A stretch of DNA of 64,000 nt from Trypanosoma brucei. Taxonomy: Eukaryota. The notes beneath the pieces are model-generated. The model was not told the origin of the DNA. It made no database searches and was given only the letters and a program-made list of their open reading frames with translations. The stretch is taken from contig CP000066.1 of NCBI GenBank assembly GCA_000002445.1, forward strand, positions 1,216,001 to 1,280,000. The letters run 5' to 3'. The translations under genes and the position numbers were made by a program. Of this stretch, positions 1-48,748 are shown piece by piece. Every line of letters begins with the position of its first letter. Position 1 is the stretch's first letter.

Positions 1-1122
1 CAGTTTCTTGTGCTGCGAGGCAACCTCCAGGAATTGAGAGTACTCCACACGTCGCTTCTCCTCGCGGTCAATCTCCTCAATCCGCCGCTTGACCTCATCG
101 AATCGCTCCGTGCCAAGCTTCTGCAACTGCCGCTCAAGGTCCTGGATCTTGTTCCACGTCTCCTCCTGCCTATCCTCGTTCTCTCGGATGTAGCGGTCGC
201 TTTTCTCTTTGTTCGCAGCGTGGCGCTTCGTCGCCTCGGCATCCTCAAGGTCAGCCTTCTGGATCGCGTCGTGGATGTGCTTCAGATCTGTCTCACACCG
301 CTGCTTCAGGCGACGCTTCGCATCCTTCATCTGACTCGTTTCCTGATTCGCCTGTTTCTGCACCTCATGGATTTTGCTGAAGGCCTGGTTCTCCTCCTCA
401 CATTTGCTGATCAAGCGGAATTTGTCCTGAATCAGATCGATTAAGCGCTCCTGAAGCTGTACCTTCGTCCACATTTGCTCCTCGGCGACCTGCATCTCAC
501 CATCATGCATCGCAACGTTCTGGATCTCGTTCGTTTTTTCAAGCTGCGCCAACTGCGTCTTGATCTGGTCGTCAGTTGAGGCAAGCGCATTCTGGATTTG
601 CGTTACGTTCATGATATCCTCCACTTGCTTCAATGTCTGTGTGGGGACCTGCGCCAACTGCGTTGCATCCAGCTGCGAGCGGCGAAGCTCCTCCTCAACC
701 TTTTCAACCTTCGCGATGGCGTTGTCGATCATCTGCGTGAAGCTCACAACACGCGTCTTGTTGCGGTTCTGACGCAGGTCCTGAAGCACCTTTTTCATGG
801 CAATAATGTCCATGAATTGTGCCTTGTCCTCAGGGCGGTAAAGCTCGCGTTGGCTCATCTCGAGTCCACACACGCGCATCAGCTTTGCGAGGTCGTATAC
901 CTCCGTTAGGTTCCATTTCGTACCGACGTCCACAGCGGCAACCAGCTCCTCAGCCTTCAGGTGGGCGCCGCGCAGCTTCTGCCTCTGTGTCTCGCTCCAG
1001 TCAGATACATGCAATTCCTGTACAAGTTCCTCATTCTCCAAACAGGCTGTCTTCAGCTTCAGGTTGTGGATCTTCTGCTTGCGCGCAGCCTCCAAACCAG
1101 TGGCATCGTCAACTGCGGCCAT
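1..1122 (-). CDS. PFR1: Paraflagellar rod protein, partial tandem copy (N-terminal ~374 codons; 3' end of CDS lies beyond window start)
   Basis: Nucleotides 1-1122 match 2164-3285 (offset 2163 bp) except for one synonymous difference (898 t vs 3061 c). The start codon complement is at 1120-1122 (ggcCAT), as in the full copy. The translation matches the N-terminus of the 589-aa PFR ORF. Confidence 0.85.
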   Translation of the reverse strand, partial: MAAVDDATGLEAARKQKIHNLKLKTACLENEELVQELHVSDWSETQRQKLRGAHLKAEELVAAVDVGTKWNLTEVYDLAKLMRVCGLEMSQRELYRPEDKAQFMDIIAMKKVLQDLRQNRNKTRVVSFTQMIDNAIAKVEKVEEELRRSQLDATQLAQVPTQTLKQVEDIMNVTQIQNALASTDDQIKTQLAQLEKTNEIQNVAMHDGEMQVAEEQMWTKVQLQERLIDLIQDKFRLISKCEEENQAFSKIHEVQKQANQETSQMKDAKRRLKQRCETDLKHIHDAIQKADLEDAEATKRHAANKEKSDRYIRENEDRQEETWNKIQDLERQLQKLGTERFDEVKRRIEEIDREEKRRVEYSQFLEVASQHKKL

Positions 1123-4868: not shown

Positions 4869-7262
4869 TCACGAAGAATCCTTCGGGCGTTTGCGCGCTC
4901 CAGTTTTCGGCATGAGTTCGTAGATAACGGGATCCGGTTCTAGTGTACACAGACAGTGCGCTATGTATTCCATCCTATATACCTTCAATCGTGAATTGAT
5001 AGCCGCAAGCTGCCCCTGCTCCCAGTTGTTGTCGTCGGAGAGGACGAAGTTTATGCTGTCGACAGGCCCAGACCCCTGAAGCAGAGCATCCACCAACTCC
5101 TGGGGTGTATACGGAATTACAGCCTTGCAGCCCCCACTTTGCAGAACGCGGGCGAAGCTCTTCGTCCTTAAATCAGTCGAACAACACAAAGCAACAGTCC
5201 AGGAAGCAAACGGCCGCTCGGTTCGGCGCCGTTGAAGCTGACACGCTTTCACAAGTTCAGAGACGGAGTTACGAAGCGACGCTCTTCGAGCCATTTCCGG
5301 GCACCATTCGTGTGGCTCCTCGGGGGGAATGCGATTTTCTTGTCTTGCTTCCTTAATAAACGAGGGTGCGAGCACCCACTTCCCTGCCGCAACGGCACTG
5401 AGAAAATATTCAGTTCTAGAAGGTCTTTCGGTAATGTAGTGTGTGCACTCTTCTACACTTATAGCTATCGTAAGTCCTAACGGCAGCAACTGAGAAAGTT
5501 CCTCTTCCAGATGTAAAAGTGATCTCGACAGCATAATACAACAAGGGGAAGGTGAAAACTCCCCCCGCCCCCCGCGTGGTGTATCGTCAATTTGAACCCT
5601 TTCACCTTCCTTTTCTGGATGAGGCGACACCCCTCTGTGTTCTATCTCTTTCCGCTCGCTTTGCGGTTGCTCCATATCAGCTTGCTTGTAGACTATCATC
5701 TGTGACGCTGGTGGAGTTTCCCGCCCGAACCTTCTACCGCACGCTGAAGAAGCAAGGGCATTAAAGGACACCTCTACATTGCAGGCGCATACGTCCCCCT
5801 CGCCCCGATCCTCTGCAGACCTACTTTGTGCCTGTCCCACACCCACAGCAGGTGACGTAGGCGTGACACTGGTTGCATCGGTCTTTGTTTCCAGTTCCCC
5901 AATCAGGTGCTCGAGCGAGCTTGAGAGCACAGAATCCCTCGGTGTTACGTCCTTGGAGAGACGTTGCAAACCATGGCCGTATGCACTGCTCCCACTCCTT
6001 CGCCCGTCGGCCAACACACCAGCAGATGCGACTGTCGCATTCCCCAACTCCTTGTTAAACTCGGAGAACTGTGGTGTATTCATGATGAAAGGGGAGCAGT
6101 CCTCCCAATATCCCGCCACAAGTGAGTGGTGTAGCCAGTCCACATGCACAAAAAAACACTCAATCACCCGTAGCTTATACCTTCGCCAGGCCAATGAAGC
6201 AACCTTAGTTGACCCTGCCAGGCCGTCAGCACTACCCACAACCAGGTGAGTAGTGTTGCTGCGCGCAAATGAGCCAACACTGTTCGCGCCCAGCACAAAG
6301 TCGTCCTGTATAACACACTGCATCCCGGCGCGCTTTAGGGAGTTCCGGAACGCCTCCCGGTCCTCTTGAGGCACAGCGGTGAATGTAATAACTGGTTTCA
6401 GAACACTAGAAACAACATACGGCTTCGCACACACACGCCCGTGACCTTGCGCTGCACACTCCTCGAGCCAGGAAAGTGAGACAAACTCTAGGCCGGGCCG
6501 AGGTGCAAAGAATTCAGTTGTTGGGCCCAGCAACACTACGTGGGTGGTAACTATTGTCAACGTCTGAGCCTGACGTATACCCGAGCGTTTGATTAGTTCC
6601 TTCACATCATCTGATACTAGATTAGGTGGAAAACAGTAGGCAACTGCGCCCGACCTCTCCCGCAGAGCGGTTATGCGCGTCGATATATCCCGCAGACCCG
6701 ATACTCCTACTAGTCCACCGTACTGTTGCGAAAACTGACAGTACGGTTTAACGCAGCATTGGTACTTCCGGGCAAACTGAACCTTAGCGTTTCGTGATAA
6801 ATCCGATATTCTGCTTGGAACAACTAATACTGAACATCTCCGGGTCATTTCGGGAGAGTACCTAGCTTGATGAGTCTCGCAAATTCTTTGCACCATCTGT
6901 CGTTCCGCAACATCCAATGAAGTTGTACACACCTCCAGCCCTCGAAGTGAGTAGTCAATCCCAAACTCACTTACTCGATCCATCGAGCAGTTGCCTGACA
7001 GCACCCACTCTGGTGTAACACATGGAATCCCGTGTACCTTAGCCAAAGCATATTTTTTCCCTTCGGTACTCCTGGCAACCAACACATTGGTCCTGTCCGT
7101 CAGTGTTTCTGTGTATGTCATACCTTGCTGCTCCAGCTTAGATTTAATGAGTTCCAGGTCATTTCCAGATATCGCTGTTGTTGTAACAAGCATGTATTTC
7201 GGTATATGGCACCCACGAGAGACGAAGACCACCCTCTCGTGGCTTATGGAAGAAACGTACAT
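4869..7262 (-). CDS. BRCT-repeat protein (multi-BRCT, TopBP1/Dpb11-like architecture), 797 aa
   Basis: The N-terminal segment LIKSKLEQQGMTYTETLTDRTNVLVAR...AKVHGIPCVTPEWVL is a canonical BRCT fold signature. Further BRCT-like blocks follow (VVPSRISDL...KPY; LAPSFIKEA...). A long acidic/serine-rich linker is present. Confidence 0.55.
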   Translation of the reverse strand: MYVSSISHERVVFVSRGCHIPKYMLVTTTAISGNDLELIKSKLEQQGMTYTETLTDRTNVLVARSTEGKKYALAKVHGIPCVTPEWVLSGNCSMDRVSEFGIDYSLRGLEVCTTSLDVAERQMVQRICETHQARYSPEMTRRCSVLVVPSRISDLSRNAKVQFARKYQCCVKPYCQFSQQYGGLVGVSGLRDISTRITALRERSGAVAYCFPPNLVSDDVKELIKRSGIRQAQTLTIVTTHVVLLGPTTEFFAPRPGLEFVSLSWLEECAAQGHGRVCAKPYVVSSVLKPVITFTAVPQEDREAFRNSLKRAGMQCVIQDDFVLGANSVGSFARSNTTHLVVGSADGLAGSTKVASLAWRRYKLRVIECFFVHVDWLHHSLVAGYWEDCSPFIMNTPQFSEFNKELGNATVASAGVLADGRRSGSSAYGHGLQRLSKDVTPRDSVLSSSLEHLIGELETKTDATSVTPTSPAVGVGQAQSRSAEDRGEGDVCACNVEVSFNALASSACGRRFGRETPPASQMIVYKQADMEQPQSERKEIEHRGVSPHPEKEGERVQIDDTPRGGRGEFSPSPCCIMLSRSLLHLEEELSQLLPLGLTIAISVEECTHYITERPSRTEYFLSAVAAGKWVLAPSFIKEARQENRIPPEEPHEWCPEMARRASLRNSVSELVKACQLQRRRTERPFASWTVALCCSTDLRTKSFARVLQSGGCKAVIPYTPQELVDALLQGSGPVDSINFVLSDDNNWEQGQLAAINSRLKVYRMEYIAHCLCTLEPDPVIYELMPKTGARKRPKDSS

Positions 7263-11813: not shown

Positions 11814-13331
11814 CTAATATGCTCTGCCTCGGTCAAGATTTGGAGGCGACCACTCATTAACGATAAGTTCGGGGAAAACATTAGGTTTCAAAGTTGAAGT
11901 ACCAAGAAGCATATTGACACACTCTTGGAACCCTTGGGTTATTGCAGGGTAAGCTGTATGGAGCTGACTCAGGTTATAAATCGATTCGCGATTATGAATT
12001 GCCAATGAAGCCAACTCAATAATGCTGCTTGCATGCGGTCCAACAGCTCGCACACCAAGAACCTGCATTTTGTGATCATTTGTAACGATAAGCTTCACAA
12101 AACCGCTCGTATTGCCCATTGCGAGGGCCCGACCCACAAATTCATAACCGTACCTGGCCACCTTGTATGCTATGTGTTCCTTCCTGCATTGTTGCTCATT
12201 GCGACCTACAGCGGCCACCTCCTGATCAAGAAACATAATCGTCGACAGATTGTCCAGGCGTTGAATAAGTTCTCCCTCCGGATATGGACGATACATATGC
12301 TCAATACAGGAACGCGCTTCCAACTCCCCAACGTTAACAAGCGCCACCCTTGAGCCGACATCACCACACGCATAAATATGCTTGTGTGGAACAACGCAAT
12401 AAAACTGGTCACGCTGGATTCGACCCTGCTTCAACTCAACACCGATTTTGTCGAGTCCAATGCTACCCACATTTGGATCCCTTCCTATTGAAACCAACGC
12501 CTTGTCGACCACGTGGTCTGTTAGCCTGTTGTCTCTCAAATCACGCAGCGTGTAACGGAATTGGCCGCCCTCCACCTTGTTGCTTTGCAAAGCAGAATGG
12601 TGGTGAAAATTGACCATCTTTGCCTCCAGGAGCTTCTGAACGAAGAGAGCAACATCATCATCTTCCATTGGCAATATTCGATTAGACTTTTCAATAACAT
12701 TTACTTCGGTAAGTCCAAAGTTCGCAAATATCGATGCAAACTCACATCCTATAACGCCAGCGCCGATAATGACAATGCTTTTCGGAAATGGTTGAGTCAT
12801 TATATCATCGGAAGTGAAGACAACCTCACCGTCGGCAATTACGGAAGCATGTTTACGAGGTTGAGCGCCGCACGCAATGACAAAGTAGTCGGCCCGTACC
12901 TCCTCAATGCCTCCACCCAACAGTTTAACATCGACACTGTGAGGTGACGTAAATGACCCATGACCACATATAACGTCAACGCTAACCTTCTCAAGCTGAT
13001 GAAGAATCTGGCCGTGACGGAACTCTGCTGCGCAATCTATTGATTTCTTAATATTCGAAAAATCAATACATGGGAGAGCTTGACGGCACTTCATAAAACG
13101 ATTGGCGGTTTGGCCGTTCATAAGGCGGACGAATTTTGCCATTTCCCATAACGTCTTCGACTGTAGCGCACCGTTCCAAAGGTCAGCACCTCCAATCCGT
13201 GATGACTCGATTATGCAAGCCCTTTTTCTATAATCCACAGCCCGCAACGCGGCGGCCACTCCTGCAGGTCCTCCCCCTATGACACAAACATCCACATTTT
13301 TCGCCCAGCTGAGCCGGGTTTTAGCAAACAT
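11814..13331 (-). CDS. Dihydrolipoamide dehydrogenase-like FAD/NAD(P)-binding oxidoreductase lacking the redox-active CxxxxC disulfide
   Basis: It has an FAD-binding GxGxxG (DVCVIGGGPAGVAAAL), a second dinucleotide fold (IVIIGAGVIGCEFAS) and a C-terminal dimerisation domain. A LipDH-like H...P...E block (LHTAYPAITQGFQE) is present. Where LipDH has GGTCLNVGCIPSK, this protein has GGADLWNGALQSK, so both active-site cysteines are missing. Confidence 0.75.
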   Translation of the reverse strand: MFAKTRLSWAKNVDVCVIGGGPAGVAAALRAVDYRKRACIIESSRIGGADLWNGALQSKTLWEMAKFVRLMNGQTANRFMKCRQALPCIDFSNIKKSIDCAAEFRHGQILHQLEKVSVDVICGHGSFTSPHSVDVKLLGGGIEEVRADYFVIACGAQPRKHASVIADGEVVFTSDDIMTQPFPKSIVIIGAGVIGCEFASIFANFGLTEVNVIEKSNRILPMEDDDVALFVQKLLEAKMVNFHHHSALQSNKVEGGQFRYTLRDLRDNRLTDHVVDKALVSIGRDPNVGSIGLDKIGVELKQGRIQRDQFYCVVPHKHIYACGDVGSRVALVNVGELEARSCIEHMYRPYPEGELIQRLDNLSTIMFLDQEVAAVGRNEQQCRKEHIAYKVARYGYEFVGRALAMGNTSGFVKLIVTNDHKMQVLGVRAVGPHASSIIELASLAIHNRESIYNLSQLHTAYPAITQGFQECVNMLLGTSTLKPNVFPELIVNEWSPPNLDRGRAY

Positions 13332-14712
13332 TAAAATTATTCGGTAAACCTGATACGATAGCAGGGAAATAATTAGCGGAAGTAAGAGTTTTTCTCAGGC
13401 AGAAGCGACAGAAAGTTAAAATACGCAGCTGAGGGTTATCGTAGAGAGTCAGATGAGCACATATATTTATCTTATGGGAAGTCAAATGGCACACACTGAA
13501 GGAAAGCAGCAACACAAACACCCTATTATACCACTTCCTTCCTCTCAGCGGTGCTTCTAAAACCATTCCCCTTCACTCCCTCCTCCTAGAGCGGACGCGA
13601 CCAGGTGCAAGAGAACGAGAAGGAAAGGCGCAGCGGGCAGATCTGGCCATCCGGACGAGAACACACTAAGCATCCTGACTGAAAACGGCGGTGCTAAGCG
13701 ACAGTGAAGGTGAAAAAAAGAACCACAACAGCAGTGTTACAGCAGACAGCGACACGCATGCAAATTTCGCTTTGCAAGTCAAAGGTAATGGGGAGCGAGG
13801 GGAGTTGGCAAGCGTCCACCGGTAGTGTGGAGCGCGAGGCCCGCGCAGTTCGCCCCACCCTCCATTAACCAGGCCAAACGAGCCAAACAAATCGAAAGGG
13901 GGAAAAGCACGACCACTCCTGAGAGCGACAATATTGCACCCAACCCTTCACACACATCCGTACGGAACCGGAGGCTGCATGAAATTCCGCCTACGGTCAG
14001 CCCAGCATCGGGAATATGGCTCAGCACCGCGCACCCAGCGGTCCCGCCCAGCCCCGCAATAATTCTAAGCAGCGGTCACCGCCCCGACGCCCCCATCACA
14101 TACTTCACCGTCCGAAAGCAAGGAAGCGGCCAGACGTACGTTCAGGCGGACGGGCGGCAACATAGCGCACAAAACCCGGGAGGGTAGTTCAACCGAAGGA
14201 AGCAGCTTCCTCCTCCCCCACCGGAGTCGACGTCAGCATCAAACGAGGAGGAAAACAAAGGAAGACCGGCACCATGCGGCCCCTCGAAAAGAGATATGTG
14301 CGGCGGGTGGTCAAAGCACCCGCGCAAGGAACATAATACTGCAAAGGGCTTTTAGCCCTTTAACGGGCGAGCACAGCCGGTCGGGTATATGACGACGGGC
14401 AAGGGGGCGGCGGATCTGTCCCTAAGAAACGCCGAAGCCATCTTTCACACTCCAGTGCCGCAACAACGCGGTTCCCCCGGGAGTGGGTGGGGCCCGTTTC
14501 TCAGCATGATTTTCCCTCGCCCGAACCCCACTTCGGCTCACTGACGAAAGCCTTTCCGCGCACAGACACCAACAAGAAGCACGACGCGGCAGAAAATCGT
14601 CACAGACGACCACGTAACGGTCTAGCGAACCACTTACACAGTTCCCTTCTTCGAGGGGTAATCCCTTCAGAGAGCCCCTCCTCAGCGGATATCACATAAC
14701 CAAGAGCCAGTT

Positions 14713-14858
14713 CAGTGTCTCACGCCCTTGTTTCCTGGGGGGAAAAAAGCATTGGGAGGGGGCGCGCTACTCGACTTCCCCGGCGCTGGTGGTGGTGACA
14801 AAGCGGTGCCCCCTCCCAATGCTTTTTTCCCCCCAGGAAACAAGGGCGTGAGACACTG
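14713..14858. repeat. Perfect 51-bp inverted repeat (arms 14713-14763 and 14808-14858) with 44-bp spacer
   Basis: The reverse complement of 14713-14763 (cagtgtctcacgcccttgtttcctggggggaaaaaagcattgggagggggc) is identical to 14808-14858. It lies in the ORF-free tract. Confidence 0.9.
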
Positions 14859-17296
14859 AGGTGAAGGAGAACCTTCTGGATGCCCCTCCGAAGTGACCTG
14901 CTAACGACCCCACCGAATAACCGCCTACAGACCCCACTAATAAGCAACTGCCGCACCTTTTCGTTTGGTAACTGTTGATGCGGAGAGTGCGTTTCAACCC
15001 CAACTCCATTTGGCCTGAGGAAGCGGAAAGCATCATTTTGAAGAGGAGAGAAATGTTGACAAGCGCTGTCGTTCTAAGAGGGCAGGCCTAAATACAGTCA
15101 CTATCGAAGGGAGGGGTCACCTGCATAGAGGGCAAAAAACAAATTTGTTCAAGGAAAACCAACCAATCCGAACGATTTTTGATTCTCAAGGGTAAAAAAT
15201 CATCGATACAGCATCACGGATGATATCTAAATTCTTCCTTCGCGCCGTAAAGGGAACCCATTTGGCATCTCTACTGACATTTTCACTGTGTATTCAAGTC
15301 ATCCGTTATTTGTTTATTTATTTTAGAAACGATACACACTTACAAGCGGAGCGCGGCGTCACGTTTTCACCTTAACTCAGCAAGTGCAGGCCCTCTACAA
15401 CCGGAGGTTTGGAAGGGGGCGTTTCGTTTCGTTTGTGCACACCATCCTGCAGGAAAGCATGCCCCTCCACCCTTTCGTACAAAGGTCCGCGCACCACATA
15501 CAGCAAAACCAAGGGTCGAGCCCCCTCCTCTCCCCAACACACACGTAACATTTCAACATGTCGCTGGAAAATGATGCCCAAGGGCAATATATTGGAGGAG
15601 ATCCATTCCTACCAGTTGGATCACCCGAACCCTAACAAAAGCCGGCCACCTTTCTGGGGAATCAGCCCTTGAGTCACCCTCGGCGGCGGATGCAGGTTCC
15701 CTCGAACGTCAGGGAGGAAATCTGCAAAAAAAAAATGTAGTTTTACTCCACAGATCTCTGAAGGTTGATCAAACACACCGCTGTTGAGTTTTCTTTCTGT
15801 TATACAAATGCCCATCGTTGGTGCCATAACTTTCGCCTCCCCAAAATGGAGTGCGCTCTGATGCCACAGGCGTTCTGAGTTCCGCATCCCTAGCAACGGC
15901 TCCCAACCTATTTTCCGCGTGAGGATGGGCACAATTTCAAGGTCACGCAGAGCATACGCCCATAGTGCCTCTTTATTCTGTTTTCAAGAACACTGCGTTC
16001 GCTGGGGGCTATTACCCACATTAGCTCACCCAGTGGTCTTTGTTCTTCGTCCTTCACTTGAAAAATATCACTCTGGGAGCGCCTTTCCATTTGAGGCGTG
16101 TAGTTGTGTTAATGACCGGTTTATCCGGGACTGTGAAAGAACAGGCTTTGCGATCATGATGAGGGAGGCTAAGATTGGTGTTGATGGGCGGAAAATTCCC
16201 TCGCGATGCCGGCCACCTCATCATGGGTCTAGGGTCCAGTACACCATCTCATCGGGTTAAGCCAAGAGCCAGCAGCGTTCTTCTCCAGGGTAACACTGCT
16301 CTGCCCGGCTGCGGCATCATACAGCACAGGGATCAGCAGCGTCTTGCTGGGACACCGCTTTTCATTTGTCGGTCCCTGGGTGTGTGCCAGTGTGCCATCA
16401 GCGGCAGAACGGATGGTGTTTTCCTTGAAAAAGCTGTGCGTCTATTTTTCCGCAACCGTTTCAGCACTGCGATGGAAAGAATATTGAAAAAAAGTGTTTA
16501 ACAACAAGCTTAAGAGGAAAACTCAGTGATGAACAGTGTTGGCGATGGTGGAATTGTCTGTGCTCGTTGATTGTTGTGTGCATTGTGCGAGTGATAAAAG
16601 CGTGTTTTATCTACATGTTTCTTCCGTGCGTTCGTTTCCTTCAATATTATGCACTCTAGCCTTTAGGCGAAAGCCTAAGCATCCGCGCAGTTTCCGCACA
16701 TACCGCAATTTACACTCGTTATTTTTGGTTGTGTACTCGTTGCCGACGGCTGGAAACTCTGAGTGTGAAGAAATCGGGAATCTCTGTGGGGCCCGTGCTC
16801 TTGGACGTAATCTCACCGTTTGTGAAAAGAGCGCCTTCATTGCGGAGATCGGGTGGCCTAGTGGAATGAAAATGGTCAACACGTACCACTTCCCCCACAC
16901 AGGGACAAAAACGTGGTAGTTCCAGAGAGCGATCTGGGCAACAAATATAACCTTGCACAAGGAAGCTCTTTTTCACGGCATGCGCAACTTTTTTCTTTGT
17001 TTGAAGGATGCGGGTGCAAAGTTCGAACAGGTACGTCAAAGGCTTATGCGGGATGTCACTCTGTCCTTCGAAGGACCTTTCTCGTTCCGATACCAGTGCG
17101 CCAAAAACGAAACTTACGCGGAAACGCCTCCACGCGCAAACCTCTTCTCGCGGCGCCAGCTGTTGGGGAGACGGCAACGTCAACTAAGTAAAGGCCTCAA
17201 ACCCGACGGCAGCGGAACGAAAACAGGAACCGACGCCACGCATTCGGACGCCAGCCCCGGCGCTGCTGACCCGTCTCTTTTGAAGCAACACAAATC

Positions 17297-17425
17297 AAAA
17301 ATTTAAATAACAAGAACTTTGTCACGAGGTTAATTTTTCTCTCCGGAGCGGTTGTTGATTTAGAGCAGTTGCCTGAAGTCATGGTTAAGGGGTTCGGTTC
17401 CCCGGTCATCTGTCGTTTTTTCCAT
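17297..17425. ncRNA. Candidate small-RNA/tRNA-like element ~100 bp upstream of tRNA-Ser(AGA); strand and identity unresolved
   Basis: On the plus strand, 17389-17421 reads GGGG-TTCGGTT-CCCC-GGTCATCTGTCG-TTTTTT, i.e. a T-arm-like hairpin, an acceptor-like 3' strand and a T6 terminator. I could not fold an anticodon arm, so it is not a canonical tRNA. Read on the minus strand, the same interval starts ~100 bp divergent from the tRNA 5' end, the spacing kinetoplastids use for tRNA-dependent pol III small-RNA genes. It ends at an Sm-site-like AAAUUUUUG (plus-strand A-run 17297-17301). Confidence 0.25.
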
Positions 17426-17523
17426 AAAGCGCTTTTCTCAGAGCCTTCGGCCGGCGTCGTGTAGCATACATAAATATAAGTACGTCAAATTTTAGTAAAT
17501 TTAGTAAAGAGGTCGGCGCACGT

Positions 17524-17604
17524 GTCACCATACCCAAGTGGTTACGGGGACTGACTAGAAATCAGTTGCGATCTCGCGCGCAGGTTCGAATCCTGCTGGT
17601 GACG
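17524..17604 (+). tRNA. tRNA-Ser (anticodon AGA), type II with long variable arm
   Basis: The cloverleaf was folded by hand. The acceptor is GTCACCA/TGGTGAC plus discriminator G. The anticodon stem is ACTGA/TCAGT with loop CTAGAAA. The variable arm is long. The T-arm is GCAGG-TTCGAAT-CCTGC. A T6 run follows at 17605-17610. Confidence 0.88.
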
Positions 17605-17610
17605 TTTTTT
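17605..17610 (+). terminator. Pol III T-run terminator (TTTTTT) after tRNA-Ser(AGA)
   Basis: A T6 run lies immediately 3' of the tRNA. Confidence 0.7.
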
Positions 17611-17809
17611 CGTCAATTCCCCGTGTTCCGCTGCTTTTGTCCAGTCAACTTTTTTCCGTAACAACAGCGATTGGGAATTGGGAAACGGTACGCGCACCAC
17701 AGGCCAGTTGTGACCACCAAGCAACACAGAGACGCCGCGGAGGACGGACAGCGTTGGGCAACACCGCTCCGAAGGGTGAAAACAATCAGCCGATTTGGGT
17801 GCGAAAAAG

Positions 17810-17891
17810 TGACAAGAGTGGGGTTTGAACCCACGCCTACGAATAGAAGAGAACTTGAGTCTCCCGCCTTAGACCACTCGGCCATCTTGCC
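17810..17891 (-). tRNA. tRNA-Leu (anticodon CAA), type II
   Basis: The minus-strand sequence is GGCAAGATGGCCGAGTGGTCTAAGGCGGGAGACTCAAGTTCTCTTCTATTCGTAGGCGTGGGTTCAAACCCCACTCTTGTCA. The anticodon loop is CTCAAGT, the variable arm is long, and the T-loop is TTCAAAC. It is followed on the minus strand by C+T5 (plus-strand A-run 17804-17808). Confidence 0.88.
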
Positions 17892-17950
17892 ATCGACGGC
17901 CACAACAGATTTGTTTTAGACACTTTTTTTATTTATGCAATGCCAAAAAC

Positions 17951-18031
17951 CGTCACCAGCAGGATTCGAACCTGCGCGCGAGATCGCAACTGATTTCGAG
18001 TCAGTCCCCGTAACCACTTGGGTATGGTGAC
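17951..18031 (-). tRNA. tRNA-Ser (anticodon CGA), type II; identical to the Ser(AGA) gene except position 34
   Basis: The minus-strand sequence equals the 17524-17604 tRNA with a single change in the anticodon loop (CTCGAAA vs CTAGAAA). A T5 run follows on the minus strand (plus-strand A-run 17945-17949). Confidence 0.88.
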
Positions 18032-18112
18032 ACCGCCTCGCCACCACCTCTCAAATGCGTTACCCTTGCACAAGCGATCGATGCCGTGATTTTTTTGTGC
18101 GTTTCTGTGCGA

Positions 18113-18360
18113 TGCGGAGTGTGAAGCGGTTGGTGGTGGTTTGCCGTCCTCCAACGGACGGCCGCCAGTCACTTGTCGTATGAGCCGATAAAGCTGCGCC
18201 GGAGTTTTCCTGGAAGTCCTCTCTGAACAATATAACTGTGGGATGTGGACGCAGAAATTTGTAGGGCTTAAAGTCACGGCGTCAAGTTGCAGTGCCAGTC
18301 GTTGATGGGCGGGCCACCATCGGATAAGAAGGGTGGGGGACACTACGCGCCACAGAACAG
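18113..18360 (+). ncRNA. Candidate structured GC-rich RNA element divergently positioned ~95-100 bp from tRNA-Ser(CGA) 5' end
   Basis: The hairpin GCCGUCC-UCCAAC-GGACGGC lies at 18142-18161. A long-range complement pairs GGUUGGUGGUGG (18129-18140) with CCACCAUCGG (18314-18323). A TTTT run is at 18204-18207. I looked for the SRP-RNA helix-8 AGCAG/GNRA signature and did not find it, so the identity is unknown. Confidence 0.2.
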
Positions 18361-21300
18361 CACTATGAGACTATAAAAATGAGGTAAAGCCGCACATGAG
18401 CTTGTTGTAGTCACTCAGTTATGTGGTGGAGCGTCTCACGAGTCGGCGCGGTGGCCATGGCAAATGGAAAGGACATTGGATCATCACAGTACCATTACAA
18501 GTGCACATCTTTCGGTGCTTTGTTTTGGAGTTAAAGAAGATGGAAGAGTCGGAAAATTTTCTTCAATTTAACACCACTAACTCAGTGCTCTTGAGCTTCA
18601 CTATCAACAGTTTCCGTTTGTGGCTCGTGTGTCCCAAGTGTCCACAAGGTTTGTACGCCTCGGGCCTCTCGGAACAGTAACGTGCCTGCGGATTGTGGAG
18701 AAAAAGTGGATAGTAAAATTAATGAATGTAGGGAGAACACGCCCTATGTACTGATTTTTTGTGAGCTTTTTTCTCGTGTTAGAGACTCACCCGCTCAAGT
18801 TACTGCATTCTTCAGGCTATGGGGAAGGCCATATTCAAGAAAATTGGCTGTGTGAACAGCAGCTGCCTCTGAATAGAGCAGGTGAATCACCGATTGGGCC
18901 TCCATGACTTTCCCACGGTGGGGAACATAAGAATTCCACATATTAATGTCCACGGAGCCGTGCAGATAGGCGTTTTTATGTTCCTAAAAACCTACTAGCG
19001 TCAACCGTGTTGGCACAACAGCGTTGAAGCCGTCTCTAGAGTCTCCGCTGTGGGGAGTAATCGGCGTTTACTTTCCTGTGAGATGCCCGTTCACCTCCAT
19101 TATTTCACGACATCAAAAAAAAAAACGTTCCAAACTTGGTTATGTGGATACTTAATGTTCAAGGGGTCAAGTACACGGGTCGAAAGTTTCATCGTTTCAA
19201 AAAATTTATTACCAGCAATGTTAGGTGTGTATTGAACTGTTTTTTCCGGGAAAAGTTGGTAAATGAATCTGTCATAGGGAAACTTGCCACCTTCACCAGC
19301 CCATTCTGAACAACAGCCCCCAGCATGTAGATTTTGAAATACGCATTGTTTTCCACGGGATTCGCACCGGTTTCTTCTGCGCGCCTTTGTGTTTTCGCTT
19401 ATCGCTCTGAAAGTCACATTTTTTTGTGGAAACATCTGCATGGTTCCCCTCGATTATTTCTTCGGTCCGGGCGCCGCATGTGCGTGAATTTCTGTCGATG
19501 TGTGTCCCAACAGTTGGATTGCCTCTTCAGTCTTTACTGAACCTTGTTGACTTCTACGTGCGCTGCGTGGGTTGCCTGCAGCGTGCTTAGGGTCATTTTA
19601 CCTTGGGATGCTCTCTGTTCCCGTGCCGAAGTGACGGCTGTAGTTGAACCGTTGTAATGAGCTTAAATGATCCTTTGCTGCGTGTCCAAAATGCTCAAGT
19701 ACTATGGACGCCCCACCCCCTGGGATGAAGTTGCCACACCAAGAGCACCGGCCACGATTACTCGTGCGGATGAAGCCGCGGACTTCCCACCGATTTGAAT
19801 GTCACCGTACTTATGGTCGTGTTGGGCGCCGTTGGCGTCTTACAAGCCACCAGCACTTTGACTCATGATGTTCCAGCGTCTTGTGTTTCATTTCCCGGAG
19901 TACTGGTTTTATCTGCTCTACTATACCAAATGTATGCGGTTGCTGCGATCCACGTGAGAAAATACGAACTGCGGTGCGCACTGCGTAAGTCTGTCTAGTC
20001 AAAGCTTTTATTTGGCCCTTTTCGCCGCATTTTCCGCTTGTAAAAAAAGTTGATCTCGGCACACTTTGTTTTACTTTCTCTAAATATTGCTCCAGTCAAT
20101 ATGTTTGGAGTCTTCTGCAGCCTCTTTCCCTATTTTTGGTGCCTTTGAATATTCTCGTCCAGCTAGTTTTTCTCTTTTTTTATTTTCTCTGGCTAGTCTC
20201 GCCTTTTCTCCTTCATAAATTAACTTATATAATTGGCGTTCTGCAGTTGCAAGTTTGTTGGTACTCTCGTTTATTCCGCTGCTTTTCTGGAGTATATCTT
20301 CCCTCCATCCTCATTTTTCCTACGTTCTCGTTTTTGCTGGACCACTGTAGTTGAACGCCGTTGTAATTTTCCTAACATCTGTTGAAACCCATTGAAACTT
20401 CATTGTGATCTCCACTCTCATATAGGTTGTGAAATTTGACAAGTCTTCTAAACATCGACTCACTGCCTTCGTTCGTGTCGGTTTCACGGGTATTGTGTCG
20501 CTTCAGTGGTGCAACCTGGCACTTGTGCGTGCGTGTCTGCTAAAAAATTTGTTTTCTCAACACAGAGAAGTGCTGGCATGGACTAGGTGCGTGGTGAAAC
20601 TACTAACCTACGTTGTTTTATTTTTTTTTGTTAAGTTATAAAAGGAAATCTGGAAAATTTGAAAGGTTATAAGATTCTGGCACAGTTGCCTCCTTTGTGT
20701 CTCCGATGTGCTGGTCAAGTCCTCCATGACTGTGCTCAACTGAATCAAGTATCATCTCTAAGTTTAGAAACGTCGCTACGATTCAAGAAAATGGCTTTCC
20801 CCCAGTTTGATTGCTTTTGCCGCTTCGGAAATGAAGTTGGTGGTGGCCGTCCATGGTCGAAACCTTTACTGGCGTATGCGTTTCTGCCCTTCCAAGCAGT
20901 CAAGTCGCTGAGCTACCACTCACCCCCTATTACGTTGCACACTCCATAGTAATGTCAGGGCCCATATTCCAGATGAGAGGGAAAACCGAGCGTGTTCATC
21001 AATTCTGTTCCTTAGTGATTGGGGCCGGCAGATGATTGTCGGCCTCCGGGGGGAGCAGGCATCAAAGTCATCGGTTCTCGGGGATGAAAAGGAACATCAC
21101 CTTACCCTTCTGCAATCGTGAGGGCACCTTTTCGGTGGTCTGTAGGCCAGCACAGTCATCAAGCACGCTCTACAAAAATAACCCGGACACAATCCCACAT
21201 GGATCGCAATGGGGAGCTAGGGAGCTCCCACAGCCGAAAAGATTCGCTTTGGCAAAGCAACTTCACAGTTACGACGTCAATTTCTGAATTTTGCGAGGAT

Positions 21301-23475
21301 TACGTGTGCCCAAAGAAGCGGAATACAAAAATGAAATATTAACAGAAGACCATAGAAATTGCACGGCCCTGAAAATGAAGACAGAACCAATACTTGAAAC
21401 GGGTAGCGACGGTATGCTTTGGGCCCCGCGATGTACAGGGAGGTATGAAAGAGCATCGGCTAAATCGATGCCGGGCAGGGGCTATAAGTCACATTTCTGC
21501 CAACATATCCCTAAAAAGCGGAAGCGGCCACAAGGCGAGCGCCGGATTCGCTCCGCCCAACAGTTAGCGCATTGATGACCGGTGCCGATATGAACTGGAG
21601 CAGTCGGGAGTTAGCTCCATACACACAGCCAGGCGAAGCAGGCTGCCTCGTCCAGGGGCATTTGGAAGGGAAACTGAGGAGAGCCAACTCTGGGAAGGCC
21701 GCAATAAAGCCTCGAAGGCGTAACTGGTCCTCACAGCTGGGCGTGGCCACATACGGAGGGTGCTGGGTATTAAACTGGAACTCGAAATTGAACTGAATTA
21801 GCGACAGCAATAGAATCATATTCTAAGTAGGGATGTGCATGAATGCTGATAAAGTCATTTTTTTTGTACTTTCACCACACACTACTCGCAGAATAAGAAC
21901 GATTGAATAGCTTGCCAACAAACACAGGTGCACGGGGTAAAGAATGGCTCGAGCGTGACCCAAAGAAAATAGGAATATAAAGGAGGTTACGCTATTGTCT
22001 CCGGTAAGAATGGAAACACAGACGACAACACCAAAAACAGATACACTGGCGCAACACTTCTTGAGCAAAGAGCTGAAAATCTTCTAAATGGAATGACGTT
22101 ATGTGACAATGTAAGCGGAAAAGTAGCGGAGAAACATAAGGTGAAAAGTCTAATCAAAGGAAAGACACAGAGTGATGGAGAGGAAAAACATTTAAGGCAA
22201 GAAACACAGAAACAGCAGCCATCAACTCAACCAATCAGGAATTCCCACCGAGGTTACAAAACACGCAAGAAATAATTGTCACCAGGCCATTGCCGATAAA
22301 GGGACGGCTGCAGCTGTAATATCACCGGGGGCTGAGGAAGTAAGGACATATTATTTCCATGGAACAAGCAAACTAACGCGCAGTTGCTGAGCAAAAGGTG
22401 TGGCAACGGAAGGAGGACCCAGAGCATTTATTGGCATTTGGGGAAACGGTTAAAGAGCGGAAGGACATTGGCGGCACTCGCCAACTTACTGTCCCCACGA
22501 TTAACTCTAAAAATAGGTCCTGCGAAAGTAAAGGAAGGGATGCTATGATGGACGTGGAAACACAGGGCGAAATTAACCAAAGGCGTAGAACCAACCATCA
22601 GGTCAACGTTTTCACACTGTCGGACAAAGAAAAATTATGAAATGGAGCGAAAACCCAACGAGGGCAACCTCACTTCAAAACAGTGCTCGGCGTGGTAGAC
22701 GGGGATTGCCACCGCAGTGGCGGAAAAGTTGAAAAGGAATGGCGAAGGGAAGCGGTACCCAATGTCTATGGCCAAAAAAAATATGAGAGGTCCTTGCCAA
22801 AGCGTGCCTCCCTCCGGGTAGTTCCGGCGAACTCACTGGAAAGCCAACAGCACGGTCGCGAATAGGGGCGCCCCGCACGTAACCGGGGGCTGTGTAGTGG
22901 GACTGAGAATTTTGTGGCAACTCCTCCTCCTCCTCCTACCTTTTACTGAGGTTCAAGTAACTTTTCCCTTTCCCCAGGAAATTGCAGGTCGAATTTTTGG
23001 CATTTCAGATGATGCGAATTATCGCTGTGAGTCGCTTGTGGCATCAGCAGTAAGAGCCTGGAAACGCCTCCGGGTCGCGTTTAAACCGCCCGGCTTCGAA
23101 CTAGCAGTGTGCGACGCACTGGGCCGGTGCCGTTGCGCACACAAAGAGGGCGGCTGCATTGTCAGCGGCTTATTCCAATATTGCGTGAGGGGCATTTCAG
23201 AAACTGCTGAACTTGTGGCGTTTGAGCATTTTTTCATTTAGAAAGGGAGAAAAGATGAGATATCTGCCATGCTACTTTTCGGATGAAGTAAGTTTGAGCG
23301 TTGCCGCAGCCCTGATAATGCGGCGGTGGGAGTGGTAGTGGCTAGATGATTTTAAATGTTACAGTGATTGGGTGGATGCTGTGGGTGAATTTTAAGTAGG
23401 AAAATGCGACCACTCAGAGGCTGCCTCTCCATTTGAGTTGCTGGTGTTTCGCGTTCGCGCAGGATATCCAATGGG

Positions 23476-24639
23476 TCATACGTCCTTCACTGCCCCTACC
23501 TCCGTCCTGAGTGATTGATGTCGCAAAGCGACATCCTCCACCTTGTAGAACTCCTTCTGCACAAGGTTGTCAAGCGCGTCGGCCACCAGGGCTTTCTGCG
23601 ACAACTGGGACCTGAGTTTCTTGCATTCCATGTCCGCCTGGCAGCTTATACGACTGATGCGTGCGCTAAGGTCGGCCCGACCATTATGTAGTTGCTCGAC
23701 ATCTGAAGATATTACCTCCACGTGTTGTTTTACACGCTGAAGGTTTCGAGTAACCCACTGTCTTGTCGTTTCTATTTCTTCCATGAGCAATGCCCGCGCC
23801 TGCTTCGCCTCGTTACCTAAAGTCACCACGGTGCCCGCAGTCTTGTCAACCTTTTGCTCCAGCGAACTGAGCGACTGGGTAATACCGTCAATTTTTTCTT
23901 GAAGCGGTGGAACCCGTGAATAATCCCGTCCTACTGACATCTCCAAATCCCTTAAAGAGCTTTCCACGAGCCGTAATTTTTCACGAAGGGTATCTTGCGC
24001 CTCTTGCCTTGACAAGTCCTTCTGCTCCGCCTCGCCCCACAGGGATGCGATCCGCTCCTCCACATCTCTTCTCACGTCACTCACTGTGTTTTCTATGCGT
24101 TGTTTCGTTCGTGCCGCTTGCTCTTCTCCGTCGGCTCGGATCTTCGCCAGATCACTCAAAAATGCTTGGTGGGCATCTTCTAATGTTTCCTGTACCTTGG
24201 AAATGATGAATTGTTTGAATGTTTCCATATCCTCTAACCTTGCACAGGCCTGCTCTAACCGTTTTAACCGCGACAGCAGCTCCTGCTGCTGAAACCTGAT
24301 GTCGGCCTCCTTTTCCTCTTGGATTCCTTGGGCTAGTTTCACCAACTTCGTAAGGTTCACCATTTTTTCATCGAACATACACACGCGGGCGGAGAGCTCC
24401 TCTACTCGATCAAGCAACTGCTGAACAGAGAAGGCGCCCTTCAACATCCACTCCACTCGTGACTCGGCGGCTGAGTCCACCTGTGCCGACCTTAAGGGCT
24501 CTTGAGGAGATACACTTTCCTTCTTTCGTGGCCGCAAATATATGTCAGTGTAGTCCATCGCTCGCACTGCGTCGGACAATCGTCTTGTTATGCTTTCCAA
24601 AAATAACAAAAGTAATGTAAAAGAGATGTGGGAGAGCAT
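23476..24639 (-). CDS. Coiled-coil protein, hypothetical (first gene downstream of the ORF-free tract on the far side)
   Basis: 387-aa ORF with continuous heptad-like charged repeats (EELSARV...LEQACARLEDMETFKQ...). The hydrophobic N-terminal 27 residues may be ORF extension, and the real start may be Met28 at 24558. Confidence 0.55.
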   Translation of the reverse strand: MLSHISFTLLLLFLESITRRLSDAVRAMDYTDIYLRPRKKESVSPQEPLRSAQVDSAAESRVEWMLKGAFSVQQLLDRVEELSARVCMFDEKMVNLTKLVKLAQGIQEEKEADIRFQQQELLSRLKRLEQACARLEDMETFKQFIISKVQETLEDAHQAFLSDLAKIRADGEEQAARTKQRIENTVSDVRRDVEERIASLWGEAEQKDLSRQEAQDTLREKLRLVESSLRDLEMSVGRDYSRVPPLQEKIDGITQSLSSLEQKVDKTAGTVVTLGNEAKQARALLMEEIETTRQWVTRNLQRVKQHVEVISSDVEQLHNGRADLSARISRISCQADMECKKLRSQLSQKALVADALDNLVQKEFYKVEDVALRHQSLRTEVGAVKDV

Positions 24640-48452: not shown

Positions 48453-48704
48453 TATATACAGCTTCTATATATCTATATATTCAGTCGCTCTCCTACAATT
48501 CCCTCTTTTGCTTGTTCCTCAACCGCCTAAAAAAAAAACGGATGCGCCTCCTAGTGCGAATACTTTGCACACGCATACAAACACTGTGACAGTACAGATA
48601 CACCTTGGCGGCTGTTTCACCAGTTATGCACAAAACAAGGTGGACAAACCCTTTCTTGCGCCTGACCAGAGGGATTGGACATAGGTAAAAAGATAAGGAA
48701 AAAA

Positions 48705-48705
<1 letters not shown>

Positions 48706-48744: not shown

Positions 48745-48748
<4 letters not shown>

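What the first reader, a model, noticed from the sequence alone, without database searches (positions are those of the whole stretch)
13332..23475. 10-kb ORF-free tract with a pol III tRNA cluster inside a uniformly minus-strand gene array: candidate head-to-tail transcription boundary
Every credible CDS in the 64 kb is on the minus strand, and gene spacing elsewhere is 0.2-2.7 kb. Between the lipoamide-dehydrogenase-like gene (start 13331) and the coiled-coil gene (ends 23476) there is no ORF >154 codons on either strand for ~10.1 kb. This interval holds three tRNA genes. In T. brucei, tRNA genes inside same-strand units are known to coincide with pol II termination and downstream re-initiation, marked by H3.V/H4.V/base J and H2A.Z/H2B.V. 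The layout predicts termination of the upstream unit near 18-23 kb and restart between ~13.4 and ~17 kb. The tract may also hide unannotated non-coding RNAs.
Basis: partly seen in the sequence, partly recalled or inferred. Interest (0 to 1): 0.7.

Follow-up and report, generated by a model that had tools for sequence, protein, structure and literature searches.

The report
Known tRNA-marked transcription boundary, T. brucei
The 10-kb gene-free stretch is a real boundary where one long multi-gene transcription unit of Trypanosoma brucei chromosome 3 stops at a cluster of three tRNA genes and the next unit starts, but this exact boundary was already mapped and published in 2010 and 2021, so it is ordinary.

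Summary
Window 13332-23475 has no ORF above 154 codons, no protein-family hit and three intact tRNA genes, and it sits inside a uniformly minus-strand gene array.

The window is T. brucei TREU927 chromosome 3, bases 1,216,001-1,280,000. The flanking genes are Tb927.3.4390 (the lipoamide-dehydrogenase-like gene) and Tb927.3.4400 (the coiled-coil gene).

- Kolev et al. 2010 list a transcription unit Tb927.3.4390 to Tb927.3.4020 as starting "next to tRNA", with the upstream unit ending at Tb927.3.4400.
- Staneva et al. 2021 list these three tRNA genes as overlapping the annotated single termination region sTTR_55 and as bound by the pol III/termination factors.

Refinements from published coordinates checked against the sequence:
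- The last upstream mRNA ends at 23344.
- A published low-abundance transcript, Tb3.NT.54, covers 15120-13442.
- Re-initiation must therefore lie upstream of 15120, most likely between 15.1 and 17.5 kb.

The tRNA-marked site is conserved from Leishmania to T. brucei. The spacer DNA is lineage-specific and diverges about three times faster than the neighbouring genes.

One unexplained extra is a perfect 52-bp palindrome at 14712-14859. Its spacer is flipped in T. b. equiperdum and its centre is deleted in T. b. gambiense.

The parts
23344..24639 (-). Tb927.3.4400, a coiled-coil protein and the last gene of the upstream transcription unit. ORF 24639..23476; published mRNA 24592..23344, giving a 3'UTR of about 132 nt.
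   Evidence: ORF. Kolev 2010 Table S1 coordinates 1240639/1239476 and 1240592/1239344. Table S14 names it the last ORF of unit Tb927.3.4890 to Tb927.3.4400. Orthologues sit in the same position in T. vivax, T. melophagium and L. braziliensis.
18033..23343 (.). 5.3-kb spacer with no published transcript, between the last polyadenylation site and the tRNA cluster. Inferred zone in which upstream pol II runs out; how far sTTR_55 extends into it was not checked.
   Evidence: No listed transcript between Tb927.3.4400 and Tb3.NT.54. No Pfam hit. No polypyrimidine or polypurine tract of 18 nt or more. No similarity to the syntenic gaps of other species. Diverges 1.0-1.9% between T. brucei subspecies. 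The tRNA genes at its lower end overlap annotated sTTR_55.
17950..18032 (-). tRNA-Ser(CGA), same direction as the pol II units.
   Evidence: ARAGORN. Rfam 59.2 bits. T5 run downstream on its strand. Equals Tb427v9_000761500 in sTTR_55. Conserved in T. vivax, T. melophagium and L. braziliensis.
17809..17891 (-). tRNA-Leu(CAA), same direction as the pol II units.
   Evidence: ARAGORN. Rfam 54.3 bits. T5 run downstream. Equals Tb427v9_000761400. The Ser(CGA)-Leu(CAA) pair aligns as one block of about 230-250 nt at 78-83% identity as far as Leishmania.
17523..17605 (+). tRNA-Ser(AGA), opposite direction. With tRNA-Ser(CGA) it forms an 89-nt, 98% complementary inverted pair 334 nt apart.
   Evidence: ARAGORN. 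Rfam 57.9 bits. T6 run downstream. Inverted repeat I1. Equals Tb427v9_000761300. Kept just upstream of the orthologous gene in T. cruzi and T. melophagium.
15121..17522 (-). Inferred pol II re-initiation zone, between the tRNA cluster and the first used spliced-leader acceptor site.
   Evidence: Inference. The first trans-splice site of the downstream unit is at 15120, so initiation must be upstream of it. Kolev 2010 types this unit's start 'next to tRNA' from 5'-triphosphate RNA-seq. Coding-strand-biased TSR 10-mers of Wedel 2017 occur 12 times on the minus strand and once on the plus strand in 13-17 kb.
13442..15120 (-). Tb3.NT.54: published 1678-nt spliced and polyadenylated transcript, 0.25 copies per cell, with heterogeneous splice sites. 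First processed RNA of the downstream unit. It lies mostly in the G+C-rich stretch (55-61% over 13.5-15 kb) whose minus strand is G+T-rich.
   Evidence: Kolev 2010 Table S7 (1231120..1229442, minus strand) and Table S12 (splice-site dispersion 117). An AG preceded by a polypyrimidine run sits immediately upstream of 15120 in the sequence. Composition. The listing of minus-strand ORFs of 70 aa or more shows none above 89 aa inside it.
14712..14859 (.). Perfect palindrome inside Tb3.NT.54: two 52-nt arms with a 44-nt spacer.
   Evidence: Inverted repeat I2, 100% complementary. RNA fold -132.9 kcal/mol, z = -15.8. DNA fold z = -14.8. Spacer exactly reverse-complemented in T. b. equiperdum, with a paired arm substitution. 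Centre deleted in T. b. gambiense.
11814..13349 (-). Tb927.3.4390, dihydrolipoamide-dehydrogenase-like, the first protein-coding gene of the downstream unit. Splice acceptor at 13349, ATG at 13331, 5'UTR 18 nt.
   Evidence: Pfam Pyr_redox_2, Pyr_redox and Pyr_redox_dim. Identity to T. brucei proteins. Kolev Table S12 splice site 1229349 with an 18-nt 5'UTR. AG at 13351-13350 in the sequence. First ORF of the unit typed 'next to tRNA'.

Best explanation
The tract is a head-to-tail boundary between two minus-strand pol II polycistronic units of T. brucei chromosome 3.

Shown:
- The upstream unit, Tb927.3.4890 to Tb927.3.4400, makes its last mRNA, which ends at window 23344.
- An active three-gene pol III tRNA cluster lies at 17523-18032 and overlaps the annotated termination region sTTR_55.
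- The first used splice site of the downstream unit is at 15120.

Inferred:
- Pol II runs on without producing stable RNA and terminates within 5.3 kb, at or before the tRNA cluster.
- Pol II re-initiates in a dispersed way in the roughly 2.4 kb just downstream of the tRNAs, at about 15.1-17.5 kb.
- It then yields first the low-abundance non-coding transcript Tb3.NT.54 (15120-13442) and then Tb927.3.4390 and the rest of the unit down to Tb927.3.4020.

The remaining DNA of the tract is fast-evolving, lineage-specific spacer with no coding content. The tRNA-marked site itself is ancient. Whether the pol III complexes themselves stop pol II is not shown.
For: Locus identity:
- The protein is 100% identical to T. 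brucei dihydrolipoamide dehydrogenase.
- Its neighbours are Sam50/Omp85, folliculin, a BRCT protein and a paraflagellar-rod protein.
- Published ORF coordinates of Tb927.3.4400 and Tb927.3.4350 map to window ORFs with a constant offset of 1,216,000.
- The published splice sites 13349 and 15120 each follow an AG and a polypyrimidine run in the sequence.

Boundary:
- Kolev 2010 Table S14 lists the two units, and types the downstream one 'next to tRNA'. The basis is 5'-triphosphate RNA enrichment at starts of units near tRNA genes.
- Staneva 2021 Table S8 puts the three tRNAs in sTTR_55 with all the RNAPIII/TTR factors bound. The intervals there are 286 and 427 bp, as in the window.

General rule: tRNA genes are associated with pol II termination, H3.V/H4.V mark termination regions, and H2A.Z/H2B.V mark non-divergent start regions.

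Sequence:
- No ORF above 154 aa.
- No Pfam domain in stop-free segments of 55 aa or more in any of the six frames.
- No polypyrimidine or polypurine tract of 18 nt or more in the tract, against 29 elsewhere in the window.
- Minus-strand G+T richness at 13.5-15 kb, and 12 versus 1 coding-strand TSR 10-mers in 13-17 kb.
- The tRNAs are intact and have T-run terminators.

Evolution:
- The order coiled-coil gene, tRNA-Ser(CGA), tRNA-Leu(CAA), lipoamide-dehydrogenase-like gene is kept in T. vivax, T. melophagium and L. braziliensis.
- T. cruzi keeps tRNA-Ser(AGA) 430 bp upstream of the gene and has an opposite-strand trans-sialidase beyond it.
- The spacer shares nothing but the tRNAs across species.
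- Within T. brucei it diverges 1.5-1.8%, against about 0.5% for the gene-dense flank.
Against: - I did not see the ChIP-seq or RNA-seq tracks. The support comes from published summary tables, so the exact edges of sTTR_55 and of the adjacent start region are unknown to me.
- The GT-rich promoter signature is weak: there are no long G runs, and the 10-mer list is dominated by T-rich words common in any UTR.
- 133 of 154 annotated termination regions lack pol III genes. tRNA genes are therefore not generally needed for termination, and their causal role here is unproven.
- The last polyadenylation site lies 5.3 kb upstream of the tRNAs, so termination could occur well before them.
- Composition in 18.5-21 kb has plus-strand polarity. 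The simple model does not explain this.
Confidence: 0.9

Rival explanations
1. The boundary is real, but the tRNA genes are passengers. Termination would be set by chromatin (H3.V, H4.V, base J) or other sequence in the 5.3-kb spacer, and initiation by the G+C-rich, G+T-rich DNA at 13.5-15 kb and its neighbourhood. The pol III complexes would play no causal role.
For: - Most annotated termination regions (133 of 154) have no pol III gene.
- The last mRNA ends 5.3 kb before the tRNAs.
- Synthetic GT-rich elements can drive directional initiation and H2A.Z deposition on their own.
- In T. vivax and T. melophagium the position of the tRNAs within the gap differs.
Against: - The same tRNA genes have stayed between the same two genes from Leishmania to T. 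brucei, while all surrounding spacer DNA has turned over.
- tRNA genes were described earlier as strong stops for pol II.
- The pol III/termination factor set sits on exactly these genes.
Confidence: 0.25
2. There is no boundary. Pol II reads through the tract, and the tRNA genes are merely embedded in one long minus-strand unit. The tract would be an unusually long intergenic region.
For: - All genes on both sides are on the same strand.
- Some tRNA genes bound by pol III factors do not coincide with an annotated termination region.
Against: - Kolev 2010 splits the array here into two units.
- This cluster is explicitly assigned to sTTR_55.
- No processed transcript is listed over about 8 kb.
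- The tract has no long polypyrimidine tracts.
Confidence: 0.04
3. The ORF-free tract is the wreck of a protein-coding gene or of a retroelement (ingi, RIME or DIRE type), and its length reflects that insertion rather than boundary function.
For: - Boundaries of transcription units are common insertion sites. In T. cruzi the equivalent place now holds a trans-sialidase gene.
- The T. b. gambiense annotation calls four short hypothetical ORFs of 105-124 aa in the tract.
- The spacer differs in size and position between species.
Against: - No reverse-transcriptase, endonuclease or any other Pfam domain at E up to 0.1 above noise, in any frame.
- No translated similarity to the gaps of four other species or to the rest of the window.
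- No internal or window-wide repeats other than the tRNA pair and the palindrome.
- The gambiense ORFs have no Pfam hit.
Confidence: 0.05

Closest known systems
Non-divergent (head-to-tail) boundaries of pol II polycistronic units in T. brucei: a single termination region followed by a non-divergent start region, often at tRNA or snRNA genes (Siegel 2009 as cited; Kolev 2010; Wedel 2017; Staneva 2021)
   Same: - Same-strand genes on both sides, with pol III genes in the gap.
- The locus itself is listed as sTTR_55 and as a unit start 'next to tRNA'.
- The first RNA is a low-abundance, heterogeneously spliced transcript, of the kind described near initiation sites.
   Different: Nothing categorical. 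At 10.1 kb between ORFs the gap is large. The coding-strand GT-rich signature is only modest.
tRNA genes as barriers or roadblocks to pol II, and as chromatin boundary elements, in yeast. This comparison is drawn in Staneva 2021.
   Same: A compact cluster of active pol III genes coincides with the place where pol II transcription of one unit ends and another begins.
   Different: - A causal barrier function has not been tested at this locus.
[quoted passage not shown]
- Most trypanosome termination regions lack pol III genes.
Long inverted repeats that give siRNAs in T. brucei (IR1-IR7; Tschudi 2012). Relevant only to the palindrome at 14712-14859.
   Same: Near-perfect arm identity is maintained, and the element lies in pol II-transcribed DNA.
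   Different: - The arms are 52 bp, against 422-10,011 bp for IR1-IR7.
- No chromosome 3 locus other than convergent units appears in that paper's lists.
- siRNA production here is untested.

Membership tests
Head-to-tail pol II unit boundary (single termination region plus non-divergent start region) of T. brucei | Protein-coding genes on the same strand on both sides of the gap | tested here: met
   All long ORFs in the window are on the minus strand. The flanking genes are 11814-13331 and 23476-24639, both minus strand. Kolev Table S14 gives both units as '-'.
Head-to-tail pol II unit boundary (single termination region plus non-divergent start region) of T. brucei | Upstream unit ends: last processed mRNA, then no spliced or polyadenylated RNA | tested here: met
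   By look-up of published maps, not raw data. The Tb927.3.4400 mRNA ends at 23344, and the next listed transcript on the way down is Tb3.NT.54 at 15120. The sequence has no polypyrimidine tract of 18 nt or more in the tract.
Head-to-tail pol II unit boundary (single termination region plus non-divergent start region) of T. brucei | Annotated termination region, or termination factors, at the site | tested here: met
   Staneva 2021 Table S8: the three tRNA genes overlap sTTR_55, and 'overlap with TTR factors' is 'yes'. The locus match rests on anticodons, order and identical 286/427-bp spacing.
Head-to-tail pol II unit boundary (single termination region plus non-divergent start region) of T. 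brucei | H3.V, H4.V or base J enrichment upstream, and H2A.Z, H2B.V or H4K10ac enrichment downstream | not testable with these tools
   No ChIP-seq tracks or coordinate lists of start regions were available. The Wedel 2017 supplements hold no such list.
Head-to-tail pol II unit boundary (single termination region plus non-divergent start region) of T. brucei | Evidence of new initiation downstream (5'-triphosphate RNAs; a unit start is called) | tested here: met
   Kolev 2010 Table S14 starts a unit at Tb927.3.4390, typed 'next to tRNA'. The method is described. The exact start sites were not seen.
Head-to-tail pol II unit boundary (single termination region plus non-divergent start region) of T. 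brucei | GT-rich bias on the coding strand of the start region (Wedel 2017) | tested here: inconclusive
   Minus-strand G+T is 0.56-0.60 and A is 0.13-0.20 at 13.5-15 kb. Enriched 10-mers occur 12 times on the minus strand and once on the plus strand in 13-17 kb. Similar counts occur in ordinary intergenic regions, and there is no G run longer than 6.
Functional nuclear tRNA genes (pol III) | Cloverleaf with anticodon, family-level covariance score, and a downstream T-run terminator | tested here: met
   ARAGORN finds three genes. Rfam RF00005 scores 54-59 bits against a gathering score of 29. T5-T6 runs follow each gene. The genes are 93-99% identical across trypanosomatids.
Degenerate non-LTR retroelement (ingi, RIME or DIRE) | Remnants of reverse-transcriptase or endonuclease coding sequence, or multi-copy DNA | tested here: not met
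   There is no such Pfam hit in six-frame segments of 55 aa or more. There are no repeats shared with the rest of the window. A whole-genome copy-number check was not possible.
siRNA-producing long inverted repeats of T. brucei (Tschudi 2012) | Inverted repeat of hundreds of bp or more, with mapped AGO1-bound small RNAs | tested here: not met
   The arms are only 52 bp. The locus is absent from that paper's tables of inverted repeats, convergent units and miscellaneous loci. Small-RNA reads themselves were not examined.

The most novel reading that the evidence does not exclude
The perfect 52-bp-arm palindrome at 14712-14859 lies in the first transcript made after re-initiation. It might be a functional invertible or structure-forming element rather than an unstable curiosity. 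Its 44-bp spacer has the opposite orientation in T. b. equiperdum. Its arms carry a paired substitution that keeps them complementary. It could form a cruciform or an RNA hairpin that influences pol II start-up, nucleosome exclusion or Dicer processing at this unit's start.
Probability: 0.04. Interest if true: 0.55.

Novelty: already known. Interest (0 to 1): 0.12.

Why it matters
It matters little as a discovery. Both the class (tRNA-associated head-to-tail boundaries of trypanosome transcription units) and this locus (sTTR_55; the unit start at Tb927.3.4390 'next to tRNA') are in the literature.

Two things are useful:
- A reader with no tools recovered a real, experimentally supported boundary from strand layout, ORF absence and tRNA genes alone.
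- This boundary has kept the same tRNA genes between the same two protein genes since the Leishmania/Trypanosoma split, while the spacer grew from 1.9 kb to 7-10 kb of unrelated DNA in different trypanosomes. That makes it a clean natural test case for whether pol III genes cause pol II termination.

Tried and rejected
- Hidden coding gene or retroelement. I ran a six-frame Pfam scan of all stop-free segments of 55 aa or more (searches failed on stop codons). I also ran tblastn and blastn against the syntenic gaps of T. vivax, T. cruzi, T. melophagium and L. braziliensis, and against the rest of the window. Nothing matched but the tRNAs.
- Other RNA genes. Rfam at gathering scores and at E up to 1 gave only the tRNAs and weak miRNA-model hits, which simply reflect the palindrome.
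- Tandem repeats. None were found.
- GT-rich promoter test with the Wedel 2017 10-mers. The bias has the right sign but is not discriminating.
- Coordinate list of start regions. None is held in the Wedel supplements. Cordon-Obras 2022 is not in the library, so its promoter motifs could not be tested.
- Palindrome as a known siRNA locus. It is not listed in Tschudi 2012.
- Broad protein search with a chimeric six-frame query. It timed out and I did not repeat it, so non-syntenic homologues of the short ORFs were not searched database-wide.
- Exact look-ups of the TREU927 protein. Two found nothing on record, so TREU927's own annotation of the tract was not seen.
Full report
**1. What is in the sequence**

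The window contains 26 minus-strand ORFs of 150 aa or more. The plus-strand ORFs of that size all overlap longer minus-strand ORFs or their flanks.

Between the ORF starting at 13331 and the ORF ending at 23476 there is nothing above 154 codons on either strand. That single 154-codon ORF has a TTG start. By my estimate it is no longer than chance predicts for about 760 stop-delimited segments: (61/64)^154 is about 6e-4 each, so about 0.5 are expected.

Outside the tract, about 71% of the DNA is minus-strand ORF, and the largest other gap is about 1.8 kb.

ARAGORN and Rfam agree on three tRNA genes:
- Ser(AGA), 17523-17605, plus strand
- Leu(CAA), 17809-17891, minus strand
- Ser(CGA), 17950-18032, minus strand

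Each is followed by a T5-T6 run on its own strand. No other Rfam family reaches threshold, even at E up to 1. There are no tandem repeats.

**2. Where the window comes from**

The protein encoded at 11814-13331 is a pyridine-nucleotide-disulphide oxidoreductase. It is 100% identical to 'dihydrolipoamide dehydrogenase, putative' of T. brucei, and its cluster includes TREU927, T. b. gambiense and T. equiperdum entries. Downstream neighbours are Omp85/Sam50, folliculin, ribosomal S8, a BRCT protein, diphthamide synthase and a paraflagellar-rod protein.

Published coordinates fix the frame exactly:
- Tb927.3.4400 ORF 1240639..1239476 equals window 24639..23476.
- Tb927.3.4350 ORF 1223262..1220869 equals window 7262..4869.

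So window position equals Tb927_03_v4 position minus 1,216,000.

As a nucleotide-level check, the published splice-acceptor sites 1229349 and 1231120 map to 13349 and 15120. Each is immediately preceded in the sequence by AG and a pyrimidine-rich run. The lipoamide-dehydrogenase-like gene is Tb927.3.4390.

**3.

Kolev et al. 2010 (PMC2936937 is not the id; the paper is PMC2936537) used 5'-triphosphate-enriched RNA-seq to call pol II units. Table S14 lists 'Tb927.3.4890 to Tb927.3.4400, -, Divergent' and 'Tb927.3.4390 to Tb927.3.4020, -, next to tRNA'. [quoted passage not shown]

Staneva et al. 2021 (PMC8559703), Supplemental Table S8, lists for Lister 427 Chr3_core:
- tRNA-Ser(aga), 1100184-1100266
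- tRNA-Leu(caa), 1100470-1100552
- tRNA-Ser(cga), 1100611-1100693

All three overlap 'sTTR_55', a single, head-to-tail termination region, and all are bound by the RNAPIII/TTR-associated factors. Order, anticodons and start-to-start intervals (286 and 427 bp) are identical to the window.

tRNA genes are associated with pol II termination. H3.V, H4.V and base J mark ends. H2A.Z and H2B.V mark the 57 non-divergent start regions.

**4. Anatomy of the tract, refined**

From published maps, read on the minus strand from high to low coordinates:
- Tb927.3.4400 mRNA, 24592..23344, with a 3'UTR of about 132 nt.
- A 5.3-kb stretch with no listed transcript, 23343..18033.
- The tRNA cluster, 18032..17523.
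- 2.4 kb with no listed transcript, 17522..15121.
- Tb3.NT.54, 15120..13442. It is 1678 nt, present at 0.25 RNA per cell, with splice-site dispersion 117, meaning very heterogeneous.
- Tb927.3.4390, with its acceptor at 13349 and an 18-nt 5'UTR.

The downstream unit must therefore initiate upstream of 15120.

Sequence features fit:
- The tract has no polypyrimidine or polypurine run of 18 nt or more, against 29 elsewhere in the window. By simple density, about 5.5 would be expected.
- 13.5-15 kb is 55-61% G+C, and its minus strand is G+T-rich, with A only 13-20%.

That last test is weak. The words are mostly T-rich and are also frequent in ordinary intergenic DNA, and no long G run is present.

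**5. No hidden gene or retroelement**

- All stop-free segments of 55 aa or more in six frames (8,992 residues) gave no Pfam hit better than E = 0.003, well below any cut-off and with no reverse-transcriptase or endonuclease family.
- Translated and nucleotide comparison with the syntenic gaps of T. vivax, T. cruzi, T. melophagium and L. braziliensis found only the tRNAs.
- Between T. brucei subspecies the tract differs by 1.8% (T. b. equiperdum) and 1.5% (T. b. gambiense). The gene-dense 2-13 kb flank differs by 0.46% and 0.55%. This is consistent with weak constraint.
- The T. b. gambiense annotation calls four ORFs of 105-124 aa in the tract with no Pfam hit. The T. b. equiperdum annotation calls none.
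- A database-wide protein search with a chimeric query timed out.

**6. Evolution of the site**

- T. vivax: the orthologue of Tb927.3.4400 (41% identity) is followed by Ser(CGA), Leu(CAA) and Ser(AGA) within 1.7 kb. A 7.6-kb gap then precedes the lipoamide-dehydrogenase-like gene.
- T. melophagium: the orthologue (50% identity) is followed by Ser(CGA) and Leu(CAA), then 5.3 kb, then Thr(AGT) and Ser(AGA), and then the gene.
- L. braziliensis: the orthologue (29% identity, E = 1e-31) is followed by Ser(CGA) and Leu(CAA), and the gene, in a gap of only 1.9 kb.
- T. cruzi: Ser(AGA) sits 430 bp upstream of the gene, and the DNA beyond it holds an opposite-strand trans-sialidase gene.

The tRNA-marked site is therefore ancestral to trypanosomatids. 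The long spacer is lineage-specific and was acquired at different positions relative to the tRNAs. This is a modest comparative addition, not a new kind of feature.

**7. Mechanism and its uncertain step**

Shown:
- Two units with a boundary here.
- Active-looking pol III genes that are bound by pol III and termination factors.
- The first processed RNA of the downstream unit at 15120.

Inferred:
- Pol II from the upstream unit decays over 23.3-18 kb and does not pass the tRNA cluster.
- New initiation is dispersed in 17.5-15.1 kb.

Not shown: that the tRNA genes cause the stop. Only 20 of 154 annotated termination regions overlap tRNA or snRNA genes, so tRNA genes are not generally required. 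Against that, they have been retained here while everything around them changed, which argues for a link. I give the 'passenger' variant 0.25.

**8. An unexplained extra**

A perfect palindrome lies at 14712-14859, inside Tb3.NT.54. It has 52-nt arms and a 44-nt spacer. As RNA it folds at -132.9 kcal/mol with z = -15.8, and as DNA with z = -14.8.

- In T. b. equiperdum the spacer is the exact reverse complement of the TREU927 spacer. Both arms carry a matching C-to-T and G-to-A change, with one further mismatch.
- In T. b. gambiense DAL972 the centre is missing. About 24-bp arms remain, carrying the same T/A variant.

This looks like ordinary palindrome dynamics: recombination between the arms flips the spacer and homogenises the arms, and central deletions occur. 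The gambiense deletion could be a cloning artefact. The locus is not among published siRNA loci. I rate a functional role as unlikely (about 4%), but it is the most novel reading left open.

**9. Verdict**

The novelty rating is 'already known', for both the class and this locus. Interest is 0.12.

Noticed in passing
window 14712-14859 (L001 about 8473-8620; L007 about 8570-8620): A perfect 52-nt-arm palindrome with a 44-nt spacer lies inside transcript Tb3.NT.54. The spacer is exactly reverse-complemented in T. b. equiperdum, and the arms carry a paired C-to-T/G-to-A change. In T. b. gambiense DAL972 the centre is deleted, leaving arms of about 24 bp. It is not listed among published siRNA loci.
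   Followed up: yes
window 24558-24639: The annotated start codon of Tb927.3.4400 is probably wrong. The published splice acceptor (24592) lies inside the ORF. The T. melophagium orthologue aligns from Met28 ('MDYTDIYL'), and the L. braziliensis alignment starts at residue 25 and covers the same Met. The true start is therefore probably at 24558.
   Followed up: partly
window 18500-21000: Composition has plus-strand polarity inside a minus-strand array. The plus strand is up to 42% T at 20001-20500. Eight start-region coding-strand 10-mers lie on the plus strand and none on the minus strand in 20-21 kb. This could reflect antisense or bidirectional transcription, or old inverted DNA. Similar reversals occur elsewhere, for example at 24-25 kb.
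   Followed up: partly
window 17522-17610 and 17945-18033: tRNA-Ser(AGA) and tRNA-Ser(CGA) form an 89-nt, 98% complementary inverted pair 334 nt apart, with tRNA-Leu between them. Any pol II read-through RNA would fold back on itself here.
   Followed up: no
window 17001-18000: This 1-kb bin holds the tRNA genes, yet it shows the highest divergence between T. brucei subspecies in the region (3.1-3.3%). The changes presumably lie in the spacers between tRNAs.
   Followed up: no
window 1-300 and 2164-2463: A 300-nt direct repeat, 100% identical, spaced 2163 nt apart, at the paraflagellar-rod gene (ORF 1516-3285). This is consistent with a tandem gene array running off the window start.
   Followed up: no
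window 48677-48750, 55093-55150 and 60086-60145; also 55689-55746 / 57580-57637: (TA)n microsatellites occur in several intergenic regions. A long CT-rich tract on the plus strand is mirrored by a GA-rich tract 1.8 kb away.
   Followed up: no
L004/L005 1-4300 (T. cruzi); L009 8853-8925 (T. melophagium): In T. cruzi the DNA upstream of the conserved tRNA-Ser(AGA) holds an opposite-strand trans-sialidase gene, so the ancestral boundary has become a synteny break and a divergent strand switch. T. melophagium has an extra tRNA-Thr(AGT) at the site.
   Followed up: partly
L007 3979-4311 and 6118-7240 (about window 16.1-17.2 kb and 19.0-19.35 kb): The T. b. gambiense annotation calls four hypothetical ORFs of 105-124 aa in the tract with no Pfam hit. 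The T. b. equiperdum annotation calls none. They are probably spurious.
   Followed up: partly
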